Source of the DNA: Candidatus Binatia bacterium
Lineage (GTDB): Bacteria > Desulfobacterota > Binatia > UBA9968
Reading direction: 5' to 3'
NCBI GenBank assembly: GCA_036522615.1
Contig: DATDFN010000168.1
Coordinates: 1 to 48,936 of the forward strand
DNA length: 48,936 nucleotides
Each line of letters opens with the position of its first letter. Position 1 is the stretch's first letter. The translations under genes and the position numbers were made by a program. The notes beneath the pieces are model-generated. The model searched no databases and was not told the DNA's origin. It worked only from the letters and a program-made list of their open reading frames with translations. This document shows, in pieces, positions 3,571 through 25,737 of the stretch.

Positions 3571-3593
3571 AAAGTTTCGGAGTCAAGTTTTCC

Positions 3594-3628
3594 GTCAAGA
3601 AAACCCGAAAAGGGCTTGACTTATTTTT
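3594..3628 (+). terminator. candidate weak intrinsic terminator/attenuator hairpin in the gcvT-gcvH spacer
   Basis: GTCAAG(3594-3599) pairs with CTTGAC(3615-3620) and CCC with GGG inside, around a GAAAA loop and an AAAA bulge. TTATTTTT follows at 3621-3628. The same TTGACT could instead be a -35 element. Confidence 0.25.
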
Positions 3629-3694
3629 ACCTGAATCATACTTGAAACCAGAAACCGGTAACTAGACCGTAACAAATCCATCCAGGAGGGTCAG

Positions 3695-4153
3695 ATGGAG
3701 TTCCCCGACGGACTGAAATATTCGAAAGAGCACGAATGGGTGCTGGTCGAGGACAAGGTCGCGATCATCGGCATCACCGAATTCGCGCAGCACGAGCTGG
3801 GCGACGTGGTCTATGTCGAGCTGCCGGAAGTCGGCGAGAAAATCGTCAAGGACGATCCGTTCGGCGCCGTCGAATCGGTGAAAGCCGTATCCGACGTGTT
3901 CGCGCCGGTGTCGGGCGCCGTGCTCGAGGTCAACGACGTGCTGCCGGAAAACCCGGAGACGATCAACGACGACCCTTACGGCGACGGCTGGATGATCAAG
4001 GTCCAGATGACCGATATGGACGACCTCAAGGATCTCATGAACGCCGAGGAATACGCGGAGTACATCGAGCAGCAGAAAGAAGAAGACGAAGAGGACGAGG
4101 ACGAAAACGGAGACGAGGAAGAAGAAGATGACGAAGACGAGGACGAGAAATAG
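3695..4153 (+). CDS. gcvH: glycine cleavage system H protein (lipoyl carrier) with poly-acidic C-terminal extension
   Basis: YSKEHEWV, lipoyl-lysine motif ESVKAVSD and [13 protein letters not shown] sits 6 nt upstream of the ATG. The last ~30 residues are almost entirely D/E. Confidence 0.93.
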
Positions 4154-4162
4154 GTCCTCTGC

Positions 4163-5509
4163 ATGCGCTACACCCCGCACACCCCCGCGGACAAAGAGCG
4201 GATGCTCCGGACCATCGGCGTCTCCGCGTTCGAGGATCTGATCCGGCACATTCCCGCCGAGCTTAGACAAAACGCCAAAATCTCACTGCCGCCGGGCCTG
4301 ACCGAAGTCGCCGTCAAGCGCCGCATGGCGGCGCTCGCCCGACAAAACGCCTCGGCGCAGGACTGGAGCTTCTTCCTCGGCGGCGGCATCTATCATCACG
4401 CCATACCGAGCGCGGTCGACGCGATCATATCGCGCGCCGAGTTCGCCACGTCGTACACGCCGTACCAGCCCGAAGTCAGCCAGGGCACGCTGCAGGCGAT
4501 GTACGAGTTCCAGACGCTCATCTGCCAGCTGACCGGCATGGAAGTCGCGAACGCCGGCGTCTACGACGGGGCGTCGGCGACGGCCGAGGCGGTGCTGATG
4601 GCGCGCCGGATTCAGGACGAGCGGCATCGCGTGCTCGTCTCTTGCGCGCTGCACCCCCAATACCGGCAGGTCATCGCCACCTTCGTGCGCAACCTGGTCG
4701 ACGTCGAGCTGGTCGAGATTCCGTTCACGGAGAGCGGCGCGACCGACGCGGAAGCGCTCGCGCGCGCCCTCGACGACCGGACGATGTGCGTCGTCGTCGG
4801 ATATCCCAACTTTTTCGGGGTCGTCGAGGAACTTGCGCCGCTGCGGAGCGCCTGCGACCGCCACGGCGCGCTGCTCGCGACGGTGACCACCGAGCCGCTG
4901 TCGCTCGCGCTGTTGCAGCCGCCGGGCGCCTGGGGCGCCGACATCGCCGTCGGCGAGGGGCAGAGCCTCGGCGTGCCGATGTCGCTGGGCGGTCCGGGAT
5001 ACGGCTTTTTCGCCACGCAAAAGAAATTCGTGCGCAGCCTGCCGGGGCGGCTCGTCGGCGAAACCGTGGACGGCGAGGGGCGGCGCGGCTTCGTGCTCAC
5101 GCTCTCCACGCGGGAGCAGCACATCCGCCGCGAGAAAGCGACGTCGAACATCTGCACGAGCCAGAGCCTTTGCGTCCTTGCCTCGACGGTTTTCATGTCG
5201 CTGCTCGGCAAGCAGGGCATGCGGCACTTGGCCGAGGTGAACGCGCGCCGCGCGCACCGCGTGCGCGAGCGGCTGGTCAAAGAAGCCGGTCTCGCGCCCG
5301 CGTTCACGGGGCCGTTCTTCAACGAGTTCGCGGTGAACGCCGGCGGCCTCGCTGAACGGCGCGGCCGTTTCTTTGAGAAGCGCATCGTCCCGGGCATCGA
5401 GCTGTCGCGGTGGTATCCCGAGATGCGCGACGCTTTGCTCGTGTGCGTCACCGAGATGAACGAAGAAGAGGAGATCGACGAGCTTGTCGGAACCTTCGCA
5501 GCGCGGTAA
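4163..5509 (+). CDS. gcvPA: glycine dehydrogenase (decarboxylating) subunit 1
   Basis: MRYTPHTPADKERML, SYTPYQPEVSQGTLQ and REQHIRREKATSNICT motifs, typical of the split P-protein alpha chain. Confidence 0.95.
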   Translation: MRYTPHTPADKERMLRTIGVSAFEDLIRHIPAELRQNAKISLPPGLTEVAVKRRMAALARQNASAQDWSFFLGGGIYHHAIPSAVDAIISRAEFATSYTPYQPEVSQGTLQAMYEFQTLICQLTGMEVANAGVYDGASATAEAVLMARRIQDERHRVLVSCALHPQYRQVIATFVRNLVDVELVEIPFTESGATDAEALARALDDRTMCVVVGYPNFFGVVEELAPLRSACDRHGALLATVTTEPLSLALLQPPGAWGADIAVGEGQSLGVPMSLGGPGYGFFATQKKFVRSLPGRLVGETVDGEGRRGFVLTLSTREQHIRREKATSNICTSQSLCVLASTVFMSLLGKQGMRHLAEVNARRAHRVRERLVKEAGLAPAFTGPFFNEFAVNAGGLAERRGRFFEKRIVPGIELSRWYPEMRDALLVCVTEMNEEEEIDELVGTFAAR

Positions 5510-6959
5510 CGGCCGCGGTCCACAAGCGCTGATTTTCGAGAGCGGCTCGCCCGGCCGCAGCGCATTCTTTTGGCCCGAGGAAAAAGGGTCGAGCGAAATT
5601 CCCCAAGCGCTGTTGCGCCCAGAGATCGCCGGCTTTCCCGAGATGGGCGAGCTGGAGGTGCTGCGCCATTTCACGCGTCTTTCGAACCTCAATTTCTCGA
5701 TCGAGAGCCAGTTTTATCCGCTCGGCTCGTGCACGATGAAGTACAATCCCAAGGTCAACGAGGTCGCCGCCCGGCTGCCGGGCTTCGCGCTGCTCCATCC
5801 GCTGCTTCCGCCGGAATTGATTCCCGGGGCGCTCGAGCTGCTCGCCGAGCTCGAAACGATGCTCGCCGAGATCGCCGGAATGGACGCGGTGACGCTCCAG
5901 CCCGCGGCCGGCGCGCAGGGCGAGCTCACCGGACTGATGGTCATCCGCGCGTTTCTCACCGAGCGGGGAAATCCGCGGAAAAAGATTCTGGTCCCCGATA
6001 CCGCGCACGGCACCAACCCGGCGAGCTCCACGCTCTGCGGCTACGGCGTCGTGCAGATCCCGTCGAACAAGCAGGGCATCATCGAGCCCGAGGCGGTCGA
6101 GCGCGCGATGTCGGAAGACGTCGCCGCGCTGATGATCACCAACCCGAACACGCTGGGCGTCTTCGAGCGCCACATCCAGGCGATCGCCGACGCGGTGCAC
6201 CGCCGCGGCGGGCTCGTGTATCTCGACGGCGCGAATTTGAACGCGCTCATGGGCATCGCCAAGCCCGGCCATATGGGCGTGGACGTGCTCCACATCAACC
6301 TGCACAAGACGTTCTCGACGCCGCACGGCGGCGGCGGCCCGGGCGCCGGACCGGTCGGCGTCAAAGCGCATCTGAAGGATTACCTGCCAACGCCGCGCAT
6401 CGTTAAGAACGGCGCGCGCTGCGAGGTGCGCGAGGATTTCCCGAAGTCCGTCGGGCGCGTGCGCTCGTTCTTCGGCAACTTCGGCATCCTCGTGCGCGCC
6501 TACACGTACATGATTTCGCTCGGCTCGGACGGCCTCGAAGAGGCGAGCCGCATGGCGGTGCTGAACGCGAACTACCTGCGCAAGCGGCTCGAGAATACGT
6601 ACTTCCTGCCTTCCCCCGAGCCGTCGATGCACGAATGCGTCTTTACGGACAAGAACCAGCAGAAGGGCGGCGTCACGACGCTCGACATCGCCAAGCGCCT
6701 GCTGGACTACGGGTTTCACCCGCCGACGATTTATTTCCCTCTCGTCGTCTCCGGCGCGCTTATGATCGAGCCGACCGAGACCGAGACGCGCGAGACGCTC
6801 GACGGCTTCGCGGAGGCGATGCTCGCCATCGCGCGCGAGGCGAAGGAAGAGCCCGCCGTCGTCAAGTCCGCTCCGCACACGACGCCCGTCGGCCGCCTCG
6901 ATGAGGCGCGCGCCGCCCGCCGCCCGGTGCTCCGCTGGGAACCGGGCGGAACCGATTGA
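5484..6959 (+). CDS. gcvPB: glycine dehydrogenase (decarboxylating) subunit 2
   Basis: ALIFE, YPLGSCTMKYNPK and the PLP-lysine motif NLHKTFSTPHGGGGPG. TTG 5484 is the only ATG/GTG/TTG start codon in frame upstream of the conserved ALIFE N-terminus, so the gene overlaps gcvPA by 26 nt. Confidence 0.93.
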   Translation: MSEPSQRGNGRGPQALIFESGSPGRSAFFWPEEKGSSEIPQALLRPEIAGFPEMGELEVLRHFTRLSNLNFSIESQFYPLGSCTMKYNPKVNEVAARLPGFALLHPLLPPELIPGALELLAELETMLAEIAGMDAVTLQPAAGAQGELTGLMVIRAFLTERGNPRKKILVPDTAHGTNPASSTLCGYGVVQIPSNKQGIIEPEAVERAMSEDVAALMITNPNTLGVFERHIQAIADAVHRRGGLVYLDGANLNALMGIAKPGHMGVDVLHINLHKTFSTPHGGGGPGAGPVGVKAHLKDYLPTPRIVKNGARCEVREDFPKSVGRVRSFFGNFGILVRAYTYMISLGSDGLEEASRMAVLNANYLRKRLENTYFLPSPEPSMHECVFTDKNQQKGGVTTLDIAKRLLDYGFHPPTIYFPLVVSGALMIEPTETETRETLDGFAEAMLAIAREAKEEPAVVKSAPHTTPVGRLDEARAARRPVLRWEPGGTD

Positions 6960-6962
6960 GAT

Positions 6963-6991
6963 TTGACGTTATTTTTTGTTGATGCTATAGA
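6963..6991 (+). promoter_or_regulatory. candidate sigma70-type promoter for the LysR regulator gene
   Basis: TTGACG (6963-6968), 17 nt spacer, TATAGA (6986-6991). The palindrome CAATG-N7-CATTG (6999-7015) and an AAAGGAG SD follow before ATG 7036. Confidence 0.45.
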
Positions 6992-7035
6992 CTCCTTGCA
7001 ATGATTATCGCATTGAAAGGAGAAACCTGATTTCC

Positions 7036-7947
7036 ATGACTCTCCATCAACTGAAAGTTTTTACGACCGTCGCCAAGATCAAGAGCTTCACGCAGGCCGC
7101 CGAGCGCCTGGGCGTGCGCCAGCCGTCCGTTTCGCTCGTGATCAAGGACCTCGAGCAGGACCTCGAGGTGCGGCTCTTCGAAAAATTGGGACACAAGATC
7201 AACCTGACCGCGGCGGGCGAAATACTGCTGCAGGACGCCGAAGACATTCTCGCCAAGGCCGAGGGCCTGAAAGAGAGAATGGACGAGCTGAAGGGCCTCA
7301 AAAGGGGCCGCCTCGCCGTCGGCGGCGCGCCGGTTCCAGCCTCTTCGTTTTTTCCTTTCGTCGCCGAGCAGTTCAAGCGGGAGTTCTCCTGGGTCGAGAC
7401 GACGCTGCGCATCGACACGAGCCTCAGCCTCGAGAAGAGCCTCCTCGACGGCGAGCTCGATCTCGCGATCCTCGGCCGCGCTCCGAGATCGCCGCTCATC
7501 GTCGGCGAGATCTGCCATCAGGAGGACGTCGTCGCGATCGCCTCGCCGCGCCATCCGCTGGCGAACAAGGGGCCGGTGCCGCTCGCGCGCATCGCGCGCG
7601 AGTCGATCATCACCGAGGAAAAAGGGGGCATTCTCCGCGACATGCTCGACGAGCGCTTCGCTAAGCTGGGCGTGCCTTTTACGCCGCACATGGAGCTGAG
7701 TCCGCGCATCGGCTCGCGCGACGCGATCCGCAGCGCCGTAGCCGGCGGCCTCGGCATCGGCTTTACGACCAGATGCCACGTCGTCTCGGACATCGCGGCG
7801 GGGCACCTAAAGATTCTCAAGGTGCCGGATTTGAAGCTCCGGCGCAGCAGCTACATCGCCGTGCACAAGAGCCGGCAAAAGACGCCGCTCGTTCAGGCGT
7901 TCGTGAGGGTGCTGAAAAAATACAAGGGCAAAAACGCGGCGAACTGA
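7036..7947 (+). CDS. LysR-family transcriptional regulator
   Basis: N-terminal wHTH LHQLKVFTTVAKIKSFTQAAERLGVRQPSVSLVIKDLE, followed by a LysR substrate-binding-type C-terminal domain. Confidence 0.9.
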   Translation: MTLHQLKVFTTVAKIKSFTQAAERLGVRQPSVSLVIKDLEQDLEVRLFEKLGHKINLTAAGEILLQDAEDILAKAEGLKERMDELKGLKRGRLAVGGAPVPASSFFPFVAEQFKREFSWVETTLRIDTSLSLEKSLLDGELDLAILGRAPRSPLIVGEICHQEDVVAIASPRHPLANKGPVPLARIARESIITEEKGGILRDMLDERFAKLGVPFTPHMELSPRIGSRDAIRSAVAGGLGIGFTTRCHVVSDIAAGHLKILKVPDLKLRRSSYIAVHKSRQKTPLVQAFVRVLKKYKGKNAAN

Positions 7948-7959
7948 GAGCGCCTCGAA

Positions 7960-8796
7960 TTACCGCGGCGCGAAGCTGAAAGAAAGGGTATTTTTCTCGT
8001 AAATGAAGGTAACGTCGATCGGCCGCTTGCCGAACGTTCGCGGCGCGCGGCCGAAGTTCGGCGCCGCCGCGGCGACGACGCGCAGCGCTTCCTGATCCAG
8101 CATGTCGTAGCCTGACGTCCGCGTGATGTAAAGCTCGTCGAGCTCGCCGCTGTCGGTCTGCGTAAACCGCACGACGAGCTTCCCGTCGATTCCGAAAGGC
8201 CTCACAGCGGATCTTGCGATCGTCGGATCCGCCCAAGCCAGATCCAAGGCGTGCTTGACGCGCTTTAAATAATCCGAATAACGCGGGTCGCGGCTGTCGA
8301 GGCGTATCGGCGCCTGTTCCTCCGCGGCTTTGCCCTGAATTCTGAAGCCGGGTGGCAGAAGCTCATTGAGCGTGGGCATCTGCTCGATGACGGCTCGACC
8401 GTTCTGAGCGGTCTCCACGCGGGGACTTTTTGTTTCCTCCTCGTCGCGATTTGTCTCACTCAGAGGCGGCTCGGTCTTTGTGATTTTTTTAGGCGCCGCT
8501 TCGATACCCGAACGATCGACTTTCGCCGACTTTCCCGGAGGCAATTCCGCCCGCTCGATTTTTTCGTTACGCGTGGTTTCCCGCGGCGCTTTCGCCGCCG
8601 GCGGTGCGCTGCGCGCCGGGGCGGATTTCTGTACGGCCGGCGGCGGGGCTTTCTCCGGCGCGGCGAAAATCTCGATGGGAATCTGTTCGATCGCGGGCGG
8701 CCGGAGCGCGCGCCCGTACCACGAGAACATCAGCAGCAGATGCAGAGCGGTCGAGACTAAAAGGAACGGAAAGAGCGTATTTCGCACAGCGCTCAC
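7960..8796 (-). CDS. TonB-family energy-transducer-like protein (N-terminal TM anchor, Pro/Lys-rich spacer, TonB C-terminal domain)
   Basis: TM segment LFPFLLVSTALHLLLMFSWYG and a Pro-rich region (PEKAPPPAVQKSAPARSAPPAAKAP). C-terminal GKLVVRFTQTDSGELDELYITRTSGYDMLDQEALRVV resembles the TonB_C fold. GTG start has a weak SD, so the start is uncertain. Confidence 0.7.
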   Translation of the reverse strand: MSAVRNTLFPFLLVSTALHLLLMFSWYGRALRPPAIEQIPIEIFAAPEKAPPPAVQKSAPARSAPPAAKAPRETTRNEKIERAELPPGKSAKVDRSGIEAAPKKITKTEPPLSETNRDEEETKSPRVETAQNGRAVIEQMPTLNELLPPGFRIQGKAAEEQAPIRLDSRDPRYSDYLKRVKHALDLAWADPTIARSAVRPFGIDGKLVVRFTQTDSGELDELYITRTSGYDMLDQEALRVVAAAAPNFGRAPRTFGKRPIDVTFIYEKNTLSFSFAPR

Positions 8797-8851: not shown

Positions 8852-9493
8852 CTATGCGTTCGCGGCGCTCGCCGGCAGCGCGTCGACAACGCCGATCATG
8901 CTGTCGCGCGTGACGAGCCTTGCGAGCTGCGCCTCGCTCATGCCTTCGGTGCCGCGCGGGCGCAGCGGCAGCACGAGATAGCGTATATCGGCGGTGCTGT
9001 CGTGCACGCGGACTTCGACGTCGGGTCCCACGGCCTGGCCGAACTCGCGCATCACGCCGCGCGGGTCGTTGACCGCGCGCGAGCGGTAGTTGAGGCTCTT
9101 GTACCAGTCCGGCGGCCGGCCGAGGATCGGCCGCGGATAACAGGAGCAGAGCGTGCACACGACCATGTGGCGGAGTTTTTCGGTGTTCTCCAGAACGACG
9201 AATTCGTTCAGGCTGGTTGCGTCGATGCCCAGCTCGGCGCACGCGGCTTTGGGATCTTCGATGAGCCGCGCCTTGAACGCGGGATCGACCCACGCGCGCG
9301 CGACGATGCGCGCGCCGTTCGCGGGCGAGCGCTGCTCCTGATAATCGATCTGCTCCTGGATGTCTTTCTGCGTGAGGACCTTTTTCTCCAGCAGCAGGTC
9401 GCGGATGGCATAGATGCGCCGCGCGTAGTGGCCGAGCTCGTGGCGCGGGTGTTCGTGGCCGTGCTCCTGAGATTTGTCGTGCGTATCGCTCAT
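8852..9493 (-). CDS. nitrile hydratase family alpha subunit, cobalt-type active site
   Basis: Track ORF 8852..9811 trimmed to ATG 9493 (MSDTHDK...), preceded by an AAAGGAAAA SD. It carries the metal-claw motif VVCTLCSCYPRPILGRPPDWYKSLNYRSR, where Thr in C-T-L-C-S-C marks the Co-type. Confidence 0.9.
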   Translation of the reverse strand: MSDTHDKSQEHGHEHPRHELGHYARRIYAIRDLLLEKKVLTQKDIQEQIDYQEQRSPANGARIVARAWVDPAFKARLIEDPKAACAELGIDATSLNEFVVLENTEKLRHMVVCTLCSCYPRPILGRPPDWYKSLNYRSRAVNDPRGVMREFGQAVGPDVEVRVHDSTADIRYLVLPLRPRGTEGMSEAQLARLVTRDSMIGVVDALPASAANA

Positions 9494-9507
9494 GTCCGGT
9501 TTTCCTT

Positions 9508-9801
9508 TCACGCGGGCTCGAGCCAGTGCTCGTAAATATCGATGAAGAGCTTGTCTTTCGCGGCTTCGTATCGGTCCCACACCTGCGACTGCTCGAAGCC
9601 GACGAGGTAGAGCGGCCGCTTCGGCAGGCCGTCGCCGCCGTAGGCGAGCGACTCGGGGTTGCGGAATTCGCCGTAGACCCGCTCGATCCAGCCGCGCTTG
9701 CCGCGCACGTACCACGGCGTGCGGATGTGGCCGGGCCGGTCTTCCATCTTGACCAGCACGCGGTCGCCCGGCTTGAACCTCGCGCTCACGGCTCGCCCCA
9801 T
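9508..9801 (-). CDS. nitrile hydratase family beta subunit, C-terminal (SH3-like) half as a separate ORF
   Basis: FKPGDRVLV...RPGHIRTPWYVRGKRGWIERV...PLYLVGFE...IDIYEHWLE matches the C-terminal domain of NHase beta. The ATG overlaps the preceding ORF by 16 nt and there is no SD. Confidence 0.8.
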   Translation of the reverse strand: MGRAVSARFKPGDRVLVKMEDRPGHIRTPWYVRGKRGWIERVYGEFRNPESLAYGGDGLPKRPLYLVGFEQSQVWDRYEAAKDKLFIDIYEHWLEPA

Positions 9802-10100
9802 TTTTTGGCAAACTCGTCGACCTTCCGGTCGATCTCTTCCTTGGTGAGAATTTTTTTCTCGATCAGGATCGACTCCATGCTCGCGATCCAGCGCTCGTAA
9901 TACTTGAGCGAGCGGTAGAGCTCCGAATCCATCTCCTCGCGCGCGCGACGGAGCTCGTCGGTGCGCTTGACGCCGACGGCGCCGAGCGCCTGATTGACCG
10001 CGTCGGCGAGGATCTCCCAGTCTTCGAGCGCATGGTCTTTCCGCTCGATCGGTCCCGAGTCGCGCTCGGTGCCGCCGATATCGTGATGTCCTCTGGGCAT
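9786..10100 (-). CDS. nitrile hydratase family beta subunit, N-terminal half as a separate ORF
   Basis: MPRGHHDIGG start and the YYERWIASME motif match the N-terminal helical domain of NHase beta. A GGAAAGGAAA SD lies upstream and the stop falls 13 nt after the next ORF's ATG. Confidence 0.8.
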   Translation of the reverse strand: MPRGHHDIGGTERDSGPIERKDHALEDWEILADAVNQALGAVGVKRTDELRRAREEMDSELYRSLKYYERWIASMESILIEKKILTKEEIDRKVDEFAKKWGEP

Positions 10101-10113
10101 TTCGTTTCCTTTC

Positions 10114-11031
10114 CTAGCCGCTCAGCCCCAAGAGCTTCGCCGCGTTGCCGCCGAGAATCTTCTTTTTATCTTCCTCCGGCAGCGCCAGATCGTTGACGAC
10201 CTTAACCGAGCGCTTGAGCGGCATTGGCACCGGCGGGAAGTCGCTGCCGAAGACGACGTGGTCGACGCCGACGGTCTCGACCGTGCAGAACACCGCGGGC
10301 GTATGCAGGCTCACCGTGTCCATGTAGAGCTGCTTAATGTATTCCGCCGGGTGCTTGGTGAGCGCGTCGGACTCCCACGGGCCGAAGCTCATGTCCTTGC
10401 GCATCTCGTAGCCCATGCCGATGCGCCCCGGCAGCAGCGGCAACGCGCCGCCCACGTGCGCGGCGACGATCTTCAAATTGGGAAATTTTTCCAGCCCGCC
10501 GGTGAGAATGAAACGCGTGAGCGAGAGCGTCGTGTCGAAGGGGCGCCCGAGCAGCTCGGGCAGGCGGAAGATTTCCATCTTTTCGTTGCCGATCGTGACG
10601 CGCGGCGGGTGGACGAAGAGCGGCACGTCCAGCTCCGTCACCAGCTCGAAAAACGGCGTCGCGCGCGGCGAATCGAGGTATTCGCCTTCGACGCTGGAGT
10701 TCACCATGATGCCCTTGAGGCCGTACTCGCGCACCGCGCGCTCGGTCTCCTTCAGCATGCGCTCGTCGCCGAACGCCACGGAAGAGGCGAGGCCGAGCAG
10801 CCGGCCGGGATGTTTGTTGGTCGCCTCCGCGGCGAATTCGTTGAACTGCTTGACGACTTCGAGCGCGTTCGCGCGCTCGGGCGTGCGGATCCAGTTGTTG
10901 CCGAACACCGTGAGATTGACGCCGGCCTCGTCCTGCTCGTTCAGCAGGCGCGGGATGTCGAAGATCGCGGGCGGCGATTTCGCGTTGTGCCAGCTCTGCG
11001 GGACGAGATGGGAATGGCAGTCGATGATCAT
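10114..11031 (-). CDS. amidohydrolase-2 (PF04909, ACMSD/LigW-like) metal-dependent hydrolase/decarboxylase
   Basis: MIIDCHSHLVP (HxH), LFVHPP, AAHVGGALP and VVFGSDFPP motifs. AAGGAAG SD is present. The stop lies 13 nt before the NHase beta-N start. Confidence 0.8.
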   Translation of the reverse strand: MIIDCHSHLVPQSWHNAKSPPAIFDIPRLLNEQDEAGVNLTVFGNNWIRTPERANALEVVKQFNEFAAEATNKHPGRLLGLASSVAFGDERMLKETERAVREYGLKGIMVNSSVEGEYLDSPRATPFFELVTELDVPLFVHPPRVTIGNEKMEIFRLPELLGRPFDTTLSLTRFILTGGLEKFPNLKIVAAHVGGALPLLPGRIGMGYEMRKDMSFGPWESDALTKHPAEYIKQLYMDTVSLHTPAVFCTVETVGVDHVVFGSDFPPVPMPLKRSVKVVNDLALPEEDKKKILGGNAAKLLGLSG

Positions 11032-11055
11032 GAATGAATGCTTCCTTCTTCGCTA

Positions 11056-11085
11056 AAAATATGCGCTTGGGTACACTAATGTCAA
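11056..11085 (-). promoter_or_regulatory. candidate sigma70-type promoter for the amidohydrolase-NHase operon
   Basis: The minus strand reads TTGACA, 18 nt spacer, TATTTT. It ends about 25 nt upstream of ATG 11031, with the SD in between. Confidence 0.45.
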
Positions 11086-11133
11086 TTGTCCGCGTGCGTG
11101 TAAAGTGGGTGCGCCTATGCTAGAGATTTTTTC

Positions 11134-12897
11134 ATGCCGCTCTCCGCAATGGAAATCCAGCGCCTGATGCGCGGCGCGCTGGGCGAGATCAATGCCGATC
11201 TCATCGTCACCGGCGGCAAGCTCGTCAACGTCTACTCGGGCGAGATTCTCGACGGCATGGAAATCGCCGTGCTCGACGGGCGCGTGGTGCACGTCGGGCC
11301 GAGCGCGGCGCACGCGCGCGGCGACAATACGGAAATTCTTGATGCCTCGGGCTTATATATCTCGCCCGGCTTCATCGACGGGCACACGCACATCGGCCAC
11401 TACTGCCGGCCTTTCGAATATCTCCAGGCGTATCTGCCGCACGGCACGACCGGGCTCGTCGCGTCCTGCGACGAGCAGGCGACCGTCTTCGGCTTCCGCG
11501 GCGTAAAACTTTTTCTCGACGAAGTCGCGGCGCATCCGCTGCGCGTCTACACGGTGCTGTCGATGGTCGCGCCGCAGGACCCGCTCCTTTGCAGCACGAA
11601 ATCGCTCACGCAGGCCGAAGTCGCCGAAGCGCTCGACGATCCGCGCGTCATCGGCCTCGGCGAGATCGTCTCGTGGCTGCGGCTGCTCCAGGGCGACGGC
11701 GAGCTGCTCGAGCGCATCGCGCTGGCGCGGCGGCGCGGGAAAATCATCCACGGCCACACCGCCGGCGCGCGCGACCAGAAGCTCTCGGCGCTCGCCGCGG
11801 CCGGCGTCTCGTCGTGCCACGAGCCGATCAACGAGGCCGAGGCGCTCCAGCGGCTGCGCTCGGGCTACTGGACGATGCTGCGCGAAGGCTCGTTCCGGCG
11901 CGACCTCGAAGCGACGCTCAGGCCGATCGTCGCGCGCGGTCTCAGCACGCAGCGGCTCATCCTTGTGACCGACGGCATGTCGCCCGACGACGTGCTCACG
12001 GACGGCCACATGGATTTCGTCGTGCGCCGCGCGATCGAGATCGGCCTGCCGCCGCTGCAGGCGATTCGAGCCGCGACGTTGAATCCAGCGGTGTATTCGG
12101 GACTGGAGATGGAGATCGGCGGCATCGCGCCCGGCCGGCGCGCGGATTTCGCGCTGCTCGAAGATTTACAGAGCGTGCGCGTCCGCGCGACGCTTGTCGA
12201 TGGCAAAGTCGTGGCGCAGGACGGCGCGTCGCTCGTCGACGCGAAGCCGATCGCCTGGCCAAAAGATACGTTTCACTCGCTCAGCATCGCGCCGGGCGTG
12301 CAGCCCGCCGCGTTCCGCATTGCTTGCTCGTCCGGGCGCGCGAAGGCGCGCGTCATGCAGCTCGTCGGCCAGACGATCACGGCCGAGGGCGTCGTCGAGT
12401 TCGGCGCGCGCGACGGCGCGCTGCAAGCAAATGCCGCCGAAGACATCATGAAGATCGCCGTTTTCGAGCGGCACAAGCCGGGCGGCGGCGTGGCGCTCGG
12501 TTTCCTCCAGGGCTTCGGCGCGCGCGTCGGCGCCGTCGGCGCGACGACGAATCTCGACGAGAATACGCTGATGGTGGCGGGCTACAGCGACGAAGATATG
12601 GCGCGCTGCGCCAATTCGCTGATCGAATCCGGGGGAGGGATCGCCGTCGTGGACCGCAGCGAGATTTTGGAGAAGATGGAGTTTCCCGTCGGAGGGATTT
12701 TTTCGCCCGGGCCGTGGAGCGAGATCGGGCGAAGGCTCGACCGCGTTCACCGCCGGCTGCGCGAGCGCGGCTCGCCTTTTCCGAAGCCGCTTTATGCGCT
12801 CGCTTTTCTAACCTTTGTGACGCTGCCCGCGCTGAGGATCACCGCGCGCGGCTTGGTGAACGCGAAGGAGAGGAAGATCGTTCCCTTACTGATCTAG
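11134..12897 (+). CDS. adenine deaminase family (Ade-like) amidohydrolase, divergent member
   Basis: 587 aa. PGFIDGHTHI, IIHGHTAG, SSCHEP and MLREGSF motifs, plus an adenine-deaminase-type C-terminal domain (AVFERHKPGGGVALGFLQGFG...). Several motifs differ from canonical Ade as I remember it. Confidence 0.75.
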   Translation: MPLSAMEIQRLMRGALGEINADLIVTGGKLVNVYSGEILDGMEIAVLDGRVVHVGPSAAHARGDNTEILDASGLYISPGFIDGHTHIGHYCRPFEYLQAYLPHGTTGLVASCDEQATVFGFRGVKLFLDEVAAHPLRVYTVLSMVAPQDPLLCSTKSLTQAEVAEALDDPRVIGLGEIVSWLRLLQGDGELLERIALARRRGKIIHGHTAGARDQKLSALAAAGVSSCHEPINEAEALQRLRSGYWTMLREGSFRRDLEATLRPIVARGLSTQRLILVTDGMSPDDVLTDGHMDFVVRRAIEIGLPPLQAIRAATLNPAVYSGLEMEIGGIAPGRRADFALLEDLQSVRVRATLVDGKVVAQDGASLVDAKPIAWPKDTFHSLSIAPGVQPAAFRIACSSGRAKARVMQLVGQTITAEGVVEFGARDGALQANAAEDIMKIAVFERHKPGGGVALGFLQGFGARVGAVGATTNLDENTLMVAGYSDEDMARCANSLIESGGGIAVVDRSEILEKMEFPVGGIFSPGPWSEIGRRLDRVHRRLRERGSPFPKPLYALAFLTFVTLPALRITARGLVNAKERKIVPLLI

Positions 12898-13317
12898 CGC
12901 CGTCTCGTCGACTTTCCGCGCGGCCGGCTCCTGCCGGAGCAGCGGCAGGACCTTGCCTTCTTTTTCTTTTCGCATCGCGCAGTGGCCTTCGAGAATCGCG
13001 CCGTCGCCGATGACGAGCGCCTGCGTCGTGACGTCGCCGACGACGACGGCCGGCGGCTGCAGATCGATTTTCTTGTCGGCCTGGATATCGGCGGTGACCT
13101 TGCCGCGGACGACAACGGAGGTGGCGTTGATCTTTCCCTTGATGATCGCGTTCTCGCCTATCGTGAGCGTGCCGTGGACCGAAATTTCGCCGTCGATTTC
13201 ACCTTCGATGGTAGTCGGCCCCTCGAAGACCAGCCGGCCGCTCGCCTTGCTGCCCGGTCCGAGATATGCGCCCGAATCGGCCCCGCGCGCGGCGGCCGCT
13301 CTGCTGTTTTCCGACAT
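12886..13317 (-). CDS. bactofilin-family polymer-forming cytoskeletal protein
   Basis: Track ORF trimmed to ATG 13317 (MSENSR...). Repetitive beta-helix pattern: GRLVFEGPTTIEGEIDGEISVHGTLTIGENAIIKGKINATSVVVRGKVTADIQA... Convergent 12-nt overlap with the Ade-like gene. Confidence 0.7.
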   Translation of the reverse strand: MSENSRAAAARGADSGAYLGPGSKASGRLVFEGPTTIEGEIDGEISVHGTLTIGENAIIKGKINATSVVVRGKVTADIQADKKIDLQPPAVVVGDVTTQALVIGDGAILEGHCAMRKEKEGKVLPLLRQEPAARKVDETALDQ

Positions 13318-13482
13318 AAGGCACCCCCTGCGATTTCGCCCCGTATAATCCAGGTCGAGCCGATTGTCCAGAGGCGCGAAATGGGCCGTTTTCGGCCCGC
13401 GCGTGCGTCGCGTTCGACGCCGGCGGTTCACAGGGCCTGCTTTCGTTGACAAGGTAGGGCGCTTCTGTCACAAGATTCCGAT

Positions 13483-14991
13483 ATGGCGCTGAAAGATTTG
13501 CGGGATTTTATTCGCGTCCTTGAATCGCACGGCGAGCTCCAGCGCGTCCGCGAAGAGGTCGACTGGAATCTCGAGATGGGCGCGATCATCCGGCATTGCT
13601 ACGACATCGGCGCGCCGGCGGCGCTGTTCGAGAAGATCAAAGATCATCCGAAGGGCTTCCGCGCGCTCGGCGCATCGCTCGGACCGAGCCGCCAGCCCGG
13701 CCATTCCCTGTACGCGCGGATCGCGCTCGCGTTCGGCCTCGCGCCGGACGCCGCGCCGCAGGCAATCATGAATTATTATCTCGAGCACAAGGAAAAGCCG
13801 ATCAAGCCCGTGACGGTGAAGACCGGCCCGTGCAAAGAAAATATTCGATTAGGAATGGACGTCGATCTGTTGAACTTTCCCGCGCCGCTCATCCACGGCG
13901 GCGACGGCGGTCGCTACGTCGGCACCTGGCACACGGTCGTCACGAAAGATCCCGAAAGCTCGTGGGTCAACTGGGGCATGTACCGTCTGATGATCCACGA
14001 CCGCAATACGATGGGCTGTCTTTTCCCGCTCCAGCAGCACATCGGCCAGATGTATCAGAAGTACGAGGCGATGAATAAGCCGATGCCGGCCGCCGTCGCG
14101 ATCGGCGCGCAGCCGCTTGCGCCGATCGTGAGCTGCGTTCAGCTTCCGCCCTACGTCAACGAAGTCGACATCGCCGGCGGTCTCGCGCGCGCGCCGATCG
14201 AGCTCGTGAAATGCGAGACGCTCGATCTCGAAGTCCCGGCGGGCGCCGAGATCATCCTCGAAGGCGAGGTGCTGCCGCACGAGCGGAAGAACGAGGGGCC
14301 TTTCGGCGAATATATGGGCTACGAGGCGGGAAAATCCTCGCCCAAGCCGATCTTCAAGGTCAATGCGATCACGCACCGGAACGATCCGATTCTCACGTTC
14401 TCCAACATGGGCATGCCCGTCCACGAATCGCAGATCGTCACCGCGTTCATCAAAGGCGCGGAAGTTTATTCGGAGCTAAAGAGGCTCGGCCTCCCCGTCA
14501 AGGGCGTTTACTACCCGCCGTTCGCCGTCGGCCATCTCGCGGTCGTGTCGACCGAGGTGCCGTTCATCAATTTCGCGCGCCGCGTCGCGCACGCCGTGTG
14601 GGCGACCAAGCCGGGGCTTTTCACCTATTACATCGTGATTGTGGACAGCGACGTCGATCCGACGAATACCGACGAGGTGCTGCACGCGATCGCGACCAAA
14701 TGCCATCCGGTGAACGGCATTCACCCCGTCGATCATATTCCCGGCTTTCCCGTGCTGCTGCCGTTCCTGCCCCCGAAGGAGCGCCTGCTCGGCGACGCGG
14801 CGGGAGTGATTTTCGACTGCACCTGGCCGAAGGACTGGCCCGCGGAGTCGATACCGATCAAAGCGAGCTTTGAAAATCTCTGGCCGGAAGATGTGCGCGC
14901 GCGCGTGCTGAGCAAGTGGGAAGCGTACGGCTTCAAATCGACGGACGCCGCGCCGAGCGATCGCGCCAAAGCGCGCGCCGGGCGAAAATAG
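13483..14991 (+). CDS. UbiD-family (prenylated-FMN-dependent) decarboxylase
   Basis: 502 aa. The N-terminus DLRDFIRVLESHGELQRVREEVDWNLEMGAI...PAALFEKIKDHP and the overall length are typical of UbiD/Fdc-type enzymes. Confidence 0.85.
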   Translation: MALKDLRDFIRVLESHGELQRVREEVDWNLEMGAIIRHCYDIGAPAALFEKIKDHPKGFRALGASLGPSRQPGHSLYARIALAFGLAPDAAPQAIMNYYLEHKEKPIKPVTVKTGPCKENIRLGMDVDLLNFPAPLIHGGDGGRYVGTWHTVVTKDPESSWVNWGMYRLMIHDRNTMGCLFPLQQHIGQMYQKYEAMNKPMPAAVAIGAQPLAPIVSCVQLPPYVNEVDIAGGLARAPIELVKCETLDLEVPAGAEIILEGEVLPHERKNEGPFGEYMGYEAGKSSPKPIFKVNAITHRNDPILTFSNMGMPVHESQIVTAFIKGAEVYSELKRLGLPVKGVYYPPFAVGHLAVVSTEVPFINFARRVAHAVWATKPGLFTYYIVIVDSDVDPTNTDEVLHAIATKCHPVNGIHPVDHIPGFPVLLPFLPPKERLLGDAAGVIFDCTWPKDWPAESIPIKASFENLWPEDVRARVLSKWEAYGFKSTDAAPSDRAKARAGRK

Positions 14992-25650: not shown

Positions 25651-25737
25651 TGGTGCGAGGAAGGGGATTTGAACCCCTACGCCATTTCTGGCACTAGCCC
25701 CTCAAACTAGCGCGTCTACCAATTCCGCCATCCTCGC
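25651..25737 (-). tRNA. tRNA-Leu (anticodon GAG), class II with long variable arm, CCA encoded
   Basis: The reverse complement reads GCGAGGATGGCGGAATTGGTAGACGCGCTAGTTTGAGGGGCTAGTGCCAGAAATGGCGTAGGGGTTCAAATCCCCTTCCTCGCACCA. Acceptor stem is 7 bp (GCGAGGA/TCCTCGC). Anticodon stem is CTAGT/GCTAG with loop TTGAGGG. The T-arm is GGGGTTCAAATCCCC. Confidence 0.93.

What the first reader, a model, noticed from the sequence alone, without database searches (positions are those of the whole stretch)
8852..10100. Cobalt-type nitrile-hydratase-family enzyme encoded as three ORFs (beta-N, beta-C, alpha), resembling toyocamycin NHase and thiocyanate hydrolase
The 214-aa ORF carries the NHase metal-claw motif VCTLCSCYP, where Thr marks the Co-type. 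Two small ORFs precede it. The 104-aa ORF (HDIGG, YYERW) matches the N-terminal half of a canonical ~200-230-aa NHase beta. The 97-aa ORF (FKPGDRV, GHIRTPWYVRGKRG, YEHWLE) matches the C-terminal half. The only characterised NHase-superfamily enzymes I know with a split beta are thiocyanate hydrolase of Thiobacillus thioparus (gene order scnB-scnA-scnC, the same as here) and toyocamycin nitrile hydratase ToyJKL. As I recall it, the ToyJKL subunits are about 21/10/11 kDa, closer to the sizes here than to the larger SCNase subunits. No NHase activator or metallochaperone-type ORF lies in the operon. The substrate cannot be read from the sequence.
Basis: partly seen in the sequence, partly recalled or inferred. 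Interest (0 to 1): 0.7.

Follow-up and report, generated by a model that had tools for sequence, protein, structure and literature searches.

The report
Three-gene cobalt nitrile hydratase, split beta
A soil bacterium (probably Candidatus Binatia) encodes a cobalt-type nitrile hydratase whose beta subunit is made from two separate small genes and which has no helper (activator) gene; this layout has already been characterised in Streptomyces and is common in uncultured bacteria, so it is a new member of a known kind, with unknown substrate.

Summary
On the minus strand lie beta-N (9786-10100, 104 aa), beta-C (9508-9801, 97 aa; likely real start GTG at 9789) and alpha (8852-9493, 213 aa, not 214). 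They match PF21006, PF02211 and PF02979. The metal claw VCTLCSC and the second-shell Arg and Tyr residues are intact.

The split is real:
- The same three ORFs occur in 57 related genomic loci and 12 independent soil contigs.
- dN/dS is 0.04-0.21.
- One Binatia subclade has an SDR gene inserted between the two halves.

It has the same gene order, is Co-type and has no activator, and its beta-N doubles as chaperone. The window is not a thiocyanate hydrolase orthologue and shows no toyocamycin context.

New here: every sampled split-beta enzyme of this kind carries CSCYP-Arg where canonical enzymes have Trp. This is the position of SCNase gamma-Arg136. They also carry an Arg-Arg pair in beta-N and lack an accessory gene. 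Canonical fused-beta relatives have Trp and usually an accessory gene.

The substrate is unknown. Verdict: new member of a known kind, moderate interest.

The parts
9786..10100 (-). beta-N subunit gene (104 aa, 12.2 kDa). It is the N-terminal half of an NHase beta. It carries Leu50-Arg51-Arg52, Glu55, Tyr67 and Trp71. It is also the likely self-subunit-swapping chaperone, by analogy with AnhD.
   Evidence: PF21006 at 9.7e-20, covering TIGR03888 positions 2-98. PDB matches to NHase beta N-halves and to SCNase beta 45-140. Weak hit to the accessory-protein model TIGR03889 (4e-4). dN/dS 0.11-0.18.
9508..9801 (-). beta-C subunit gene (97 aa from the ATG at 9801). The conserved start is probably the GTG at 9789, which overlaps the beta-N stop codon (GTGA) and gives 93 aa. 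It is the SH3-like C-terminal half of an NHase beta, with the motif GH-I-R (Arg27, or Arg23 counted from the GTG).
   Evidence: PF02211 at 1e-21, covering TIGR03888 positions 134-226. PDB matches to NHase beta residues about 127-226 and to SCNase alpha 30-126. Junction comparison across loci shows ATGA/GTGA overlaps. dN/dS 0.04-0.21.
8852..9493 (-). alpha subunit gene (213 aa, 24.0 kDa). It is the catalytic, metal-binding subunit, with a His-rich N-terminus.
   Evidence: PF02979 at 2.3e-80; TIGR01323 at 259 bits, above its cut-off. About 48% identical to the Co-type alphas 1V29 and 1IRE, 43% to SCNase gamma and 49% to the Fe-type alpha.
9140..9157 (-). Codons for the metal claw Cys113-Thr-Leu-Cys116-Ser-Cys118. 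Thr at position 2, followed by Tyr-Pro, is the Co-type pattern.
   Evidence: Read directly from the sequence. The Fe-type reference reads VCSLCSCTAWP; Co-type references read VCTLCSCYPWP.
9131..9133 (-). Codon for alpha Arg121 (claw Cys118 + 3). It is equivalent to SCNase gamma-Arg136 and to Trp116 of Pseudonocardia Co-NHase.
   Evidence: The window 15-mer VVCTLCSCYPRPILG is identical to SCNase gamma 126-140. PDB entries 3VYG (R136W) and 3VYH (W116R) are mutants at this position. Arg is present in all 57 beta-N/beta-C/alpha loci and absent from all fused-beta loci.
10114..11031 (-). Upstream co-oriented Amidohydro_2 gene (305 aa). It ends 13 nt before beta-N and is probably co-transcribed. It belongs to the ACMSD/LigW-type non-oxidative decarboxylase family and is not an amidase.
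   Evidence: PF04909 at 1.9e-38. Best PDB matches are ACMSD (3.7e-34), 5-carboxyvanillate decarboxylase and 2,3-dihydroxybenzoate decarboxylase. It is adjacent only in the closest relatives, L001-L009 and L013.
11058..11085 (-). Sigma-70-like promoter candidate (TTGACA-16-CATATT) upstream of the Amidohydro_2 gene. It is a possible operon promoter.
   Evidence: Consensus scan found 3 sites against 0.6 expected. This is a pattern match only.

Best explanation
The three ORFs encode a functional, cobalt-type, three-subunit nitrile hydratase of the activator-less AnhD-AnhE-AnhA kind.

Shown:
- Alpha carries the Cys113/Cys116/Cys118 claw.
- Beta-N supplies Arg51 (equivalent to beta-Arg52 of Pseudonocardia NHase, by my alignment), Glu55, Tyr67 and Trp71.
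- Beta-C supplies Arg27 (equivalent to beta-Arg157).
- The genes are tightly packed. The beta-N stop overlaps the beta-C start, and 14 nt with an AAGGA ribosome-binding site precede alpha.
- All three genes are under purifying selection.

Inferred by homology:
- Two claw cysteines are oxidised to Cys-SO2H and Cys-SOH around a non-corrin Co(III).
- The subunits assemble as (alpha/beta-N/beta-C)2.
- The enzyme adds water to a C-N triple bond to give an amide.
- Maturation needs no separate activator. Beta-N, which resembles accessory proteins, acts as metal and self-subunit-swapping chaperone, as shown for AnhD of Streptomyces canus.

The pocket differs from canonical NHases. Alpha Arg121 replaces the pocket Trp, and beta-N has Arg51-Arg52. 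A polar, N-cyano-type or anionic nitrile is therefore more likely than a plain hydrophobic one. The substrate is not determined.
For: - Family HMMs and PDB matches support the assignment.
- Catalytic and second-shell residues are conserved.
- The split and the gene order are conserved in 57 loci from Binatia, Rokubacteria/Methylomirabilota, Chloroflexota and other lineages, and on 12 independent soil contigs.
- An SDR gene is inserted between beta-N and beta-C in about 20 Binatia genomes, which shows the halves are independent genes.
- dN/dS is 0.04-0.21.
- ScNHase has the same order, is Co-type, has no activator and uses AnhD as chaperone (PMC7329996).
- A Streptomyces plasmid cassette, beta-N/beta-C/alpha followed by a HoxN cobalt transporter, is 54%, 52% and 35% identical to the window alpha, beta-C and beta-N.
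- Accessory-protein genes were found next to 10 of 16 Trp/His-type loci. None was found next to any Arg-type locus or in the window.
- Cultured Arg-type loci sit beside HoxN or CbtAB cobalt transporters.
Against: - There are no biochemical data for this clade.
- No cobalt transporter, amidase or aldoxime dehydratase was found among the window ORFs scanned, so metal type and physiological role rest on motifs alone.
- Sequence relationship to the actual S. canus AnhDEA and S. rimosus ToyJKL proteins could not be tested because their sequences were not obtainable.
- The alpha NJ tree leaves deep relationships unresolved. The bipartition of Arg-type versus the rest has bootstrap 0.405.
- The chaperone role of beta-N is transferred from a single study of a homologue that is 35% identical to the window beta-N at most.
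Confidence: 0.8

Rival explanations
1. It is a thiocyanate hydrolase (SCNase-type) that converts SCN- to COS and NH3 rather than hydrating nitriles.
For: - It shares the three-subunit layout with SCNase. SCNase beta matches beta-N, SCNase alpha matches beta-C and SCNase gamma matches alpha.
- The claw region VVCTLCSCYPRPILG is an identical 15-mer, and it includes the substrate-selectivity residue gamma-Arg136.
- Beta-N Arg51 and Arg52 align with SCNase beta Arg91 and Arg92.
Against: - The SCNase-gamma equivalog TIGR03887 scores 208.6, below its cut-off of 291.45, while the NHase-alpha equivalog TIGR01323 passes.
- SCNase beta-Arg90 is Leu50 here.
- The window proteins lack the SCNase N-terminal extensions and the gamma insertion: 104, 97 and 213 aa against 157, 126 and 243 aa.
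- Overall alpha identity to SCNase gamma is 43%, lower than to Co-NHases at 48%.
- No sulfur-oxidation or COS-related genes are in the window.
- The same Arg is present in Streptomyces-type enzymes, and the characterised member of that type hydrates nitriles.
Confidence: 0.06
2. It is a toyocamycin-type (ToyJKL) hydratase that acts on 7-cyano-7-deazapurines such as preQ0 or toyocamycin.
For: - Subunit masses are similar: TNHase 21.2, 10 and 11.4 kDa (PMC8574189) against 24.0, 12.2 and 11.4 kDa here.
- An adenine-deaminase-like gene is transcribed divergently nearby, at 11134-12897.
Against: - No 7-deazapurine biosynthesis or salvage genes (GTP cyclohydrolase I, QueC/D/E-like) were found among the window ORFs scanned.
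- The neighbourhood is housekeeping.
- The cassette sits in unrelated contexts in other clades, such as truB/rbfA or SDR/luciferase-like oxidoreductase.
- The toy gene names imply alpha first (toyJ), which is a different order. This is from my own knowledge and was not verified here.
Confidence: 0.03
3. The split is a frameshift, pseudogene or assembly error in an ordinary two-subunit NHase, or the two halves are rejoined by programmed -1 frameshifting at the AAAAAA run before the beta-C ATG.
For: - The beta-N and beta-C ORFs overlap by 16 nt, and beta-C is in the -1 frame relative to beta-N.
- An A6 run lies just upstream.
- Canonical Trp-type operons with an interrupted beta do exist, namely L057 and Aminobacter sp. 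MSH1 pUSP2.
Against: - The same split is found in 57 loci and 12 independent contigs.
- The A-run is not conserved: AACAAA, AAAAAG, GCTAAG and AAGCGT occur in relatives.
- Junctions vary: 4-nt ATGA/GTGA overlaps, gaps of 27-220 nt, or a whole SDR gene between the halves.
- About 35 linker residues of a fused beta are absent.
- Both halves are under purifying selection.
Confidence: 0.02
4. It works together with the upstream ACMSD-type Amidohydro_2 decarboxylase in a dedicated pathway. The pathway would act on a carboxylated or otherwise anionic nitrile, for example a cyano-aromatic acid. The cationic pocket residues (alpha Arg121, beta-N Arg52) would bind the carboxylate.
For: - Amidohydro_2 ends 13 nt before beta-N, with a shared promoter candidate.
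- The pairing is conserved in L001-L009, L013 and the soil contigs.
- A UbiD-family decarboxylase lies nearby.
- Arg occupies the SCNase anion-binding position.
Against: - The Amidohydro_2 link is seen only among close relatives (alpha at least 80% identical), so it may be inherited synteny.
- Other members of the same alpha subclade lack it (L010-L012, L014-L020).
- The Arg signature is shared by enzymes in many unrelated contexts.
Confidence: 0.09

Closest known systems
Streptomyces canus CGMCC 13662 nitrile hydratase ScNHase (AnhD-AnhE-AnhA); Guo et al. 2019 and 2020 (PMC7329996)
   Same: - Three subunits, with the beta split into an N-half (AnhD) and a C-half (AnhE).
- Gene order beta-N, beta-C, alpha.
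- Co-type claw.
- No activator gene.
- A related Streptomyces plasmid cassette (L075) shares CSCYP-Arg, the Arg-Arg pair in beta-N and His21 in beta-C.
   Different: - Only about 54%, 52% and 35% identity (alpha, beta-C, beta-N) to the Streptomyces sp. NBC_01176 cassette. The true S. canus sequences were not compared.
- Streptomyces beta-N has Lys-Arg-Arg where the window has Leu-Arg-Arg.
- The Streptomyces cassette is followed by aquaporin and a HoxN cobalt transporter. The window cassette is preceded by an ACMSD-type decarboxylase and has no transporter.
- In the alpha tree the window clade (0.88) is separate from the Streptomyces/Rhizobium group (0.81).
Thiocyanate hydrolase of Thiobacillus thioparus (ScnB/ScnA/ScnC; PDB 2DD4)
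   Same: - Three subunits that correspond to beta-N, beta-C and alpha.
- Same gene order; the SCNase order is my recollection of Katayama 1998 and was not verified here.
- Co-type claw with an identical 15-residue segment that includes gamma-Arg136.
- The Arg91-Arg92 equivalents are present.
   Different: - Below the SCNase equivalog cut-off.
- Beta-Arg90 is Leu here.
- No N-terminal extensions on the small subunits and no gamma insertion.
- No sulfur-metabolism context.
Toyocamycin nitrile hydratase ToyJKL of Streptomyces rimosus
   Same: A three-subunit (alpha-beta-gamma)2 Co-NHase with small subunits of about 10-11 kDa (PMC8574189, PMC12648386).
   Different: - ToyJKL is encoded inside the toyA-M deazapurine cluster, and no such genes are here.
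- The gene order appears to be alpha first.
- The alpha subunit alone is reported to be active (cited in PMC7329996).
Canonical two-subunit Co-type NHases (Pseudonocardia thermophila 1IRE, Bacillus smithii 1V29, Pseudomonas putida 3QXE)
   Same: - Alpha is about 48% identical, with the same claw.
- The same second-shell Arg, Tyr and Trp residues come from beta.
   Different: - They have a single beta of 219-233 aa, with a linker of about 35 residues.
- They have a pocket Trp (CSCYPWP) where the window has Arg.
- They have a dedicated accessory or activator gene.
Planktothrix agardhii PCC 7805 plasmid p1 cassette (uncharacterised; annotated as SH3-like / SH3-like / nthA)
   Same: It is the nearest example from a cultured organism with the same order beta-N, beta-C, alpha. 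It has Leu-Arg-Arg in beta-N and CSCYP-Arg in alpha.
   Different: About 41% (beta-N) and 52% (alpha) identity. The neighbours differ (asnB, GST). It has not been characterised.

Membership tests
Nitrile hydratase, Co-type (EC 4.2.1.84) | Alpha subunit with the C-(T)-L-C-S-C metal claw, scoring above the curated alpha model | tested here: met
   VCTLCSC at residues 112-118. TIGR01323 scores 259 against a cut-off of 249.85. PF02979 at 2.3e-80.
Nitrile hydratase, Co-type (EC 4.2.1.84) | A single beta subunit of about 220 aa that passes the curated beta model | tested here: not met
   Each half scores below the TIGR03888 cut-off (75.3 and 65.4 against 152.2). Together they cover positions 2-98 and 134-226, with the linker absent.
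Nitrile hydratase, Co-type (EC 4.2.1.84) | Second-shell beta residues that hold the oxidised cysteines (beta-Arg52, beta-Arg157) and the catalytic beta-Tyr68 | tested here: met
   Beta-N Arg51 and Tyr67 and beta-C Arg27 align to these residues. The numbering against Pseudonocardia NHase is my own alignment.
Nitrile hydratase, Co-type (EC 4.2.1.84) | Adjacent accessory or activator gene | tested here: not met
   None in the operon and none among the window ORFs scanned. A tblastn with two accessory proteins found nothing in the window or in any Arg-type locus.
Nitrile hydratase, Co-type (EC 4.2.1.84) | Cobalt content, Cys-SO2H/Cys-SOH modification and nitrile hydration activity | not testable with these tools
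   Requires expression and biochemistry.
Three-subunit activator-less NHase (ScNHase AnhD-AnhE-AnhA type) | Beta encoded as separate N-half and C-half genes, in the order beta-N, beta-C, alpha | tested here: met
   the ScNHase order is given in PMC7329996.
Three-subunit activator-less NHase (ScNHase AnhD-AnhE-AnhA type) | No activator gene; beta-N acts as the chaperone | tested here: inconclusive
   Absence is shown for the 48.9-kb window and for the flanks of related loci, but not genome-wide. Beta-N has weak similarity to the accessory model TIGR03889 (4e-4). The chaperone function itself is not testable here.
Three-subunit activator-less NHase (ScNHase AnhD-AnhE-AnhA type) | Sequence orthology to S. 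canus AnhD/E/A | not tested
   The S. canus sequences were not obtainable. The proxy cassette from Streptomyces sp. NBC_01176 is 54%, 52% and 35% identical (alpha, beta-C, beta-N). The tree places the two in different subclades.
Thiocyanate hydrolase (ScnABC) | Gamma subunit that passes the curated SCNase model | tested here: not met
   TIGR03887 scores 208.6 against a cut-off of 291.45.
Thiocyanate hydrolase (ScnABC) | Two pocket arginines, beta-Arg90 and gamma-Arg136. That these control substrate selectivity is my recollection of Yamanaka et al. 2013; PDB entry 3VYG (with the reciprocal NHase mutant 3VYH) confirms mutants at the gamma-Arg136 position only. | tested here: not met
   The gamma-Arg136 equivalent is present (Arg121), but the beta-Arg90 equivalent is Leu50.
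Thiocyanate hydrolase (ScnABC) | Extended small subunits (157 and 126 aa) and a 243-aa gamma with an insertion | tested here: not met
   The window proteins are 104, 97 and 213 aa. The alignments start at SCNase beta residue 45 and SCNase alpha residue 30.
Toyocamycin nitrile hydratase (ToyJKL) | Encoded within a 7-deazapurine (toyA-M) biosynthetic cluster | tested here: not met
   The window genes scanned are gcvTHP, folD, LysR, TonB, Amidohydro_2, an adenine-deaminase-like gene, UbiD, EPS glycosyltransferases, tpi, pgk, tol-pal, ribF, rho, rpsB and tsf.
Toyocamycin nitrile hydratase (ToyJKL) | Sequence relationship to ToyJ/K/L and activity on toyocamycin | not tested
   The sequences are not in any collection I could reach. 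McCarty and Bandarian 2008 is not held.

The most novel reading that the evidence does not exclude
Split-beta NHases may form one large and essentially unstudied functional subfamily. This would include the Binatia clade of the window, the Streptomyces AnhDEA type, the rhizobial beta-C/alpha/beta-N type and SCNase. Four traits would define it together:
- loss of the beta linker;
- replacement of the pocket Trp by Arg at the SCNase gamma-Arg136 position;
- an Arg-Arg pair in beta-N;
- loss of the accessory protein.

On this reading SCNase is only its most derived branch. The abundant soil Binatia enzymes would act on a polar or anionic C-N triple-bond substrate (a pseudohalide, an N-cyano compound or a cyano-carboxylate) that canonical NHases do not take. 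In the window this could be coupled to the adjacent ACMSD-type decarboxylase.
Probability: 0.15. Interest if true: 0.6.

Novelty: new member of a known kind. Interest (0 to 1): 0.35.

Why it matters
Three-subunit, activator-less cobalt NHases are attractive biocatalysts. They mature without a helper gene, and one of them degrades neonicotinoids. So far they are known from only a few characterised enzymes.

This locus shows the architecture is common and under strong selection in uncultured soil lineages such as Binatia, Rokubacteria and Chloroflexota.

The comparison also yields a simple sequence signature that separates the sampled activator-less split enzymes from canonical ones: CSCYP-Arg in alpha, an Arg-Arg pair in beta-N, and no accessory gene. 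This gives three practical leads:
- a rule for mining such enzymes;
- a mutational hypothesis (R121W, L50R) about substrate selectivity;
- a lead on how thiocyanate hydrolase arose.

It does not by itself open a new kind of biology.

Tried and rejected
1. Programmed -1 frameshifting at the A6 run to fuse beta-N and beta-C. Rejected, because neither the A-run nor the junction geometry is conserved.

2. Inferring the substrate from conserved neighbours. Neighbour clustering across 73 loci shows only clade-specific synteny. The patterns are Amidohydro_2/TonB/LysR/gcvP in close relatives, truB/rbfA in another subclade, and SDR plus a luciferase-like oxidoreductase in a Binatia subclade. There is no universal partner.

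3. Obtaining the ToyJKL and S. canus AnhDEA sequences.
- The papers were not held, and the supplement has no sequences.
- Looking up ten actinobacterial-looking beta-N representatives gave no Streptomyces names.
- A search with the Streptomyces sp. NBC_01176 alpha found many Streptomyces homologues, but none named S. canus or S. rimosus.

4. Alpha phylogeny to test a single origin of the split. The window clade is supported, but deep nodes are not. SCNase gamma is drawn to the Fe-type outgroup (0.56), and the bipartition of Arg-type versus the rest has bootstrap 0.405. A first attempt with Biopython timed out.

5. Riboswitch or other RNA upstream of the operon. Rfam finds only one tRNA in the window.

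6. Literature search for the SCNase Arg136 work and for NHase in Binatia. Nothing was found in the held library.

7. Multimer structure modelling. Not attempted, because the tool folds single chains only and refuses sequences that are not in the window.
Full report
**What is in the sequence**

Three tightly packed ORFs lie on the minus strand.
- Beta-N is at 9786-10100 (104 aa).
- Beta-C is at 9508-9801 (97 aa).

Pfam gives NHase_beta_N at 9.7e-20, NHase_beta_C at 1e-21 and NHase_alpha at 2.3e-80. In NCBIfam the alpha passes the nitrile hydratase alpha equivalog (TIGR01323, 259 bits against a cut-off of 249.85). It fails the thiocyanate hydrolase gamma equivalog (TIGR03887, 208.6 against 291.45). 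The two small ORFs cover positions 2-98 and 134-226 of the 226-position beta model. About 35 linker residues of an ordinary beta are therefore absent.

Against solved structures the alpha is closest to Co-type alphas (1V29 at 1e-62). SCNase gamma scores 3.8e-49 and Fe-type alphas about 1e-47. Beta-C matches the C-terminal halves of NHase betas and SCNase alpha. Beta-N matches the N-terminal halves of NHase betas and SCNase beta.

**Gene organisation**

An Amidohydro_2 gene (10114-11031) ends 13 nt before beta-N, with a GGAAAGGA ribosome-binding site between them. Beta-N and beta-C overlap. Fourteen nucleotides containing AAGGA separate beta-C from alpha. A sigma-70-like promoter candidate lies just upstream of the Amidohydro_2 gene, at 11085-11058.

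Comparison of the beta-N/beta-C junction in relatives shows that the conserved beta-C start is an ATG or GTG overlapping the beta-N stop codon (ATGA or GTGA). In the window this is the GTG at 9789, which gives a 93-aa beta-C.

**Is the split real?**

Yes, on several independent lines.
- The exact alpha protein occurs on 12 contigs from independent soil metagenomes, each with the same 104/97/213-aa gene calls.
- A scan of one genome per species returned 73 related loci. In 57 of them (alpha identity 54-96%) beta-N and beta-C are separate ORFs in the order beta-N, beta-C, alpha. A fused beta appears only among more distant relatives with alpha identity of 54% or less.
- The best 120 of 511 beta-N homologues are all 102-109 aa and carry only the N-domain.
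- Among representatives of 50%-identity clusters, 909 match beta-N at E <= 1e-3, and most of the best 150 are stand-alone proteins of 95-130 aa. Accessory proteins are also beta-N-like, so this count is not clean.
- In about 20 complete or near-complete Binatia genomes a short-chain dehydrogenase gene sits between beta-N and beta-C. That is only possible if the halves are independent genes.
- dN/dS against six relatives is 0.04-0.21 for each of the three genes.
- A -1 frameshift at the A6 run before the beta-C ATG would fuse the halves, but neither the run nor the junction geometry is conserved. I reject that idea.

**Catalytic competence**

The alpha carries the claw Cys113-Thr-Leu-Cys116-Ser-Cys118 followed by Tyr-Pro, which is the Co-type pattern. 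The Fe-type reference reads CSLCSCTAWP.

Beta-N carries Arg51, Glu55, Tyr67 and Trp71. By my alignment to the Pseudonocardia enzyme these correspond to beta-Arg52, Glu56, Tyr68 and Trp72. Beta-C carries the GH-I-R motif, whose Arg corresponds to beta-Arg157. These are the second-shell residues that hold the oxidised cysteines. I therefore expect an active enzyme.

The held literature contains a characterised enzyme with exactly this layout: the nitrile hydratase of Streptomyces canus CGMCC 13662.
- Its genes run anhD (beta N-half), anhE (beta C-half), anhA (alpha).
- It is cobalt-dependent, and no activator gene exists in the genome.
- AnhD acts as metal and self-subunit-swapping chaperone.
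- It hydrates acetamiprid, thiacloprid and benzonitrile but not indole-3-acetonitrile (PMC7329996; PMC13243292).

The claim that SCNase and ToyJKL are the only characterised split-beta enzymes is therefore incomplete. The window proteins are 24.0, 12.2 and 11.4 kDa.

I could not obtain the S. canus or S. rimosus sequences. A Streptomyces sp. NBC_01176 plasmid carries the same cassette: beta-N, beta-C, alpha, then aquaporin, a hypothetical gene and a HoxN cobalt transporter. It is 54%, 52% and 35% identical to the window alpha, beta-C and beta-N. Its alpha family is widespread in Streptomyces.

**A signature that separates split from canonical enzymes**

The window alpha reads VVCTLCSCYPRPILG. 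This is identical over 15 residues to SCNase gamma 126-140 and includes gamma-Arg136. Canonical Co-NHases have Trp at this position (CSCYPWP). PDB entries 3VYG (SCNase R136W) and 3VYH (Pseudonocardia NHase W116R) are mutants at exactly this position. I recall them as part of a study showing that two pocket arginines control SCNase selectivity.

The second of those arginines, SCNase beta-Arg90, aligns with Leu50 in the window. SCNase Arg91 and Arg92 align with window Arg51 and Arg52.

Across the fetched loci the pattern is complete.
- All 57 beta-N/beta-C/alpha loci have CSCYP-Arg and an x-Arg-Arg motif in beta-N.
- All fused-beta loci have Trp (one has His), and Arg followed by His, Tyr, Phe or another non-Arg residue.
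- The same holds in cultured organisms. Streptomyces and Planktothrix agardhii have the order beta-N, beta-C, alpha. Rhizobium leguminosarum, Polymorphobacter, Microvirga terrae and Burkholderia sp. PAMC 26561 have the order beta-C, alpha, beta-N and sit next to HoxN or CbtAB cobalt transporters. All have Arg.
- All 120 best homologues of the Streptomyces alpha have Arg.
- Accessory-protein genes were found beside 10 of 16 Trp/His-type loci. None was found beside any Arg-type locus or in the window.
- Two Trp-type operons with an accessory gene also have an interrupted beta: L057 and Aminobacter sp. MSH1 pUSP2. These look like separate, recent splits or frameshifts of the canonical type.

**Phylogeny**

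I built a neighbour-joining tree of 42 alpha sequences over 202 columns with 200 bootstraps. It included the SCNase gamma and Fe-type alpha sequences, which I had recalled and then verified as 100% identical to PDB chains.
- The window falls in a subclade with support 0.97.
- That subclade lies within a clade made only of metagenome-derived beta-N/beta-C/alpha loci, with support 0.88.
- Streptomyces, Rhizobium and Polymorphobacter group together at 0.81.
- Deep nodes are unresolved. The bipartition of Arg-type versus the rest has only 0.405, and SCNase gamma is drawn to the Fe-type branch.

That condition is not met. A single origin of all split enzymes is not shown either.

**Context and substrate**

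The upstream Amidohydro_2 protein belongs to the ACMSD, LigW and dihydroxybenzoate-decarboxylase branch. It is not an amidase. It is adjacent only in close relatives.

The rest of the window was scanned as follows.
- Flanking genes are an adenine-deaminase-like gene, a bactofilin, a UbiD-family decarboxylase, a TonB-like gene and a LysR regulator.
- Beyond these the genes scanned are housekeeping: the glycine cleavage system, folD, EPS glycosyltransferases, tpi, pgk, tol-pal, ribF, rho, rpsB and tsf.
- No cobalt transporter, amidase, aldoxime dehydratase, deazapurine gene or sulfur-oxidation gene was found.
- The last batch of ORFs, roughly 38.7-48.9 kb, was not scanned because one search failed.

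Other subclades place the cassette next to truB/rbfA, or next to SDR and luciferase-like oxidoreductase genes. The substrate therefore cannot be inferred from context. The Arg-rich pocket suggests something more polar than the classic hydrophobic nitriles.

**Verdict**

This is a three-subunit, activator-less, Co-type NHase-family enzyme. It is the same kind of thing as Streptomyces canus AnhDEA. It is related in architecture, and in one pocket residue, to thiocyanate hydrolase. It is not an orthologue of SCNase and shows no link to toyocamycin chemistry. It belongs to a large clade of uncharacterised enzymes from soil bacteria; the closest contigs are labelled Candidatus Binatia.

I rate it a new member of a known kind. 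The comparative signature is a useful by-product rather than a new kind of system: split beta, pocket Arg, an Arg-Arg pair in beta-N, and no accessory gene.

Noticed in passing
L033 and L036-L056 (for example L037: beta-N about 6548-6883, SDR about 6900-7682, beta-C 7692-7988, alpha 7992-8621): In about 20 Binatia genomes a short-chain dehydrogenase gene (adh_short_C2, 1.9e-56) lies between the beta-N and beta-C genes. A luciferase-like oxidoreductase lies next to alpha. This may be a clade-specific pathway.
   Followed up: partly
P0163 and P0285 (307-311 aa); P0123, P0125, P0162, P0198 and P0250 (186-212 aa): Other domain arrangements exist in metagenomes. One is a single chain of beta-N, a His/Asp-rich linker and alpha, with the motif CSCYPIF; it recalls the fused eukaryotic NHase. 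Others carry two tandem beta-N domains.
   Followed up: no
L074, L076, L077, L078, L079 and L080 (RefSeq plasmid records): In these records the stand-alone beta-N genes are annotated as 'SH3-like domain-containing protein', a name that fits only the beta-C half. As a result, three-gene NHases are hard to see in annotation.
   Followed up: partly
L079 (Aminobacter sp. MSH1 pUSP2: 2959-4635) and L057 (612-2240): These are canonical Trp-type NHase operons, with an accessory protein and (in Aminobacter) an amidase and CbtAB. Their beta is also interrupted into two ORFs, in the order alpha, beta-N, beta-C. They are independent recent splits, frameshifts or sequencing errors.
   Followed up: partly
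window 10114-14991: Several metal-dependent hydrolase and decarboxylase genes cluster around the NHase genes. They are an ACMSD-type Amidohydro_2, an adenine-deaminase-like protein (TIGR01178 at 374 bits, below its cut-off of 472.5) and a UbiD-family enzyme. The UbiD enzyme is closest to phenylphosphate carboxylase alpha (390 bits, below the cut-off of 564.6). A bactofilin gene lies between them.
   Followed up: partly
window alpha residues 1-22 (about 9428-9493); also SCNase gamma and the Streptomyces, Rhizobium and Polymorphobacter alphas: The N-termini of the alpha subunits are rich in His and Asp (SQEHGHEHPRHELGH here). Canonical Co-type alphas (1V29, 3QXE) have them too, so this is not specific to the split clade. 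They could help capture cobalt.
   Followed up: no
window alpha residues 57-112: This stretch gives hits to NHLP leader peptide and Frankia_peptide RiPP precursor models (TIGR03793 at 2.9e-18). This is the known homology between NHase alpha and 'nitrile hydratase leader peptides', not a RiPP gene.
   Followed up: yes
L076 (Rhizobium leguminosarum pRL3b4, 2959-7197): A cassette in the order beta-C, alpha, beta-N is flanked by CbtA/CbtB cobalt transporter genes. It is followed by genes for cytochrome P460 and sulfite oxidase. The sulfur/nitrogen-oxidation flavour of this context was not explored.
   Followed up: no
window 25654-25737 (minus strand): This is the only Rfam match in the window: a tRNA gene (54.1 bits).
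   Followed up: no
L002, L004, L026, L027, L044 and L052 record titles: Contigs with near-identical synteny carry very different labels, including Proteobacteria, Verrucomicrobiia, Klebsiella pneumoniae and Enterobacteriaceae MAGs. Mis-binning or mislabelling of Binatia-like contigs is likely.
   Followed up: no
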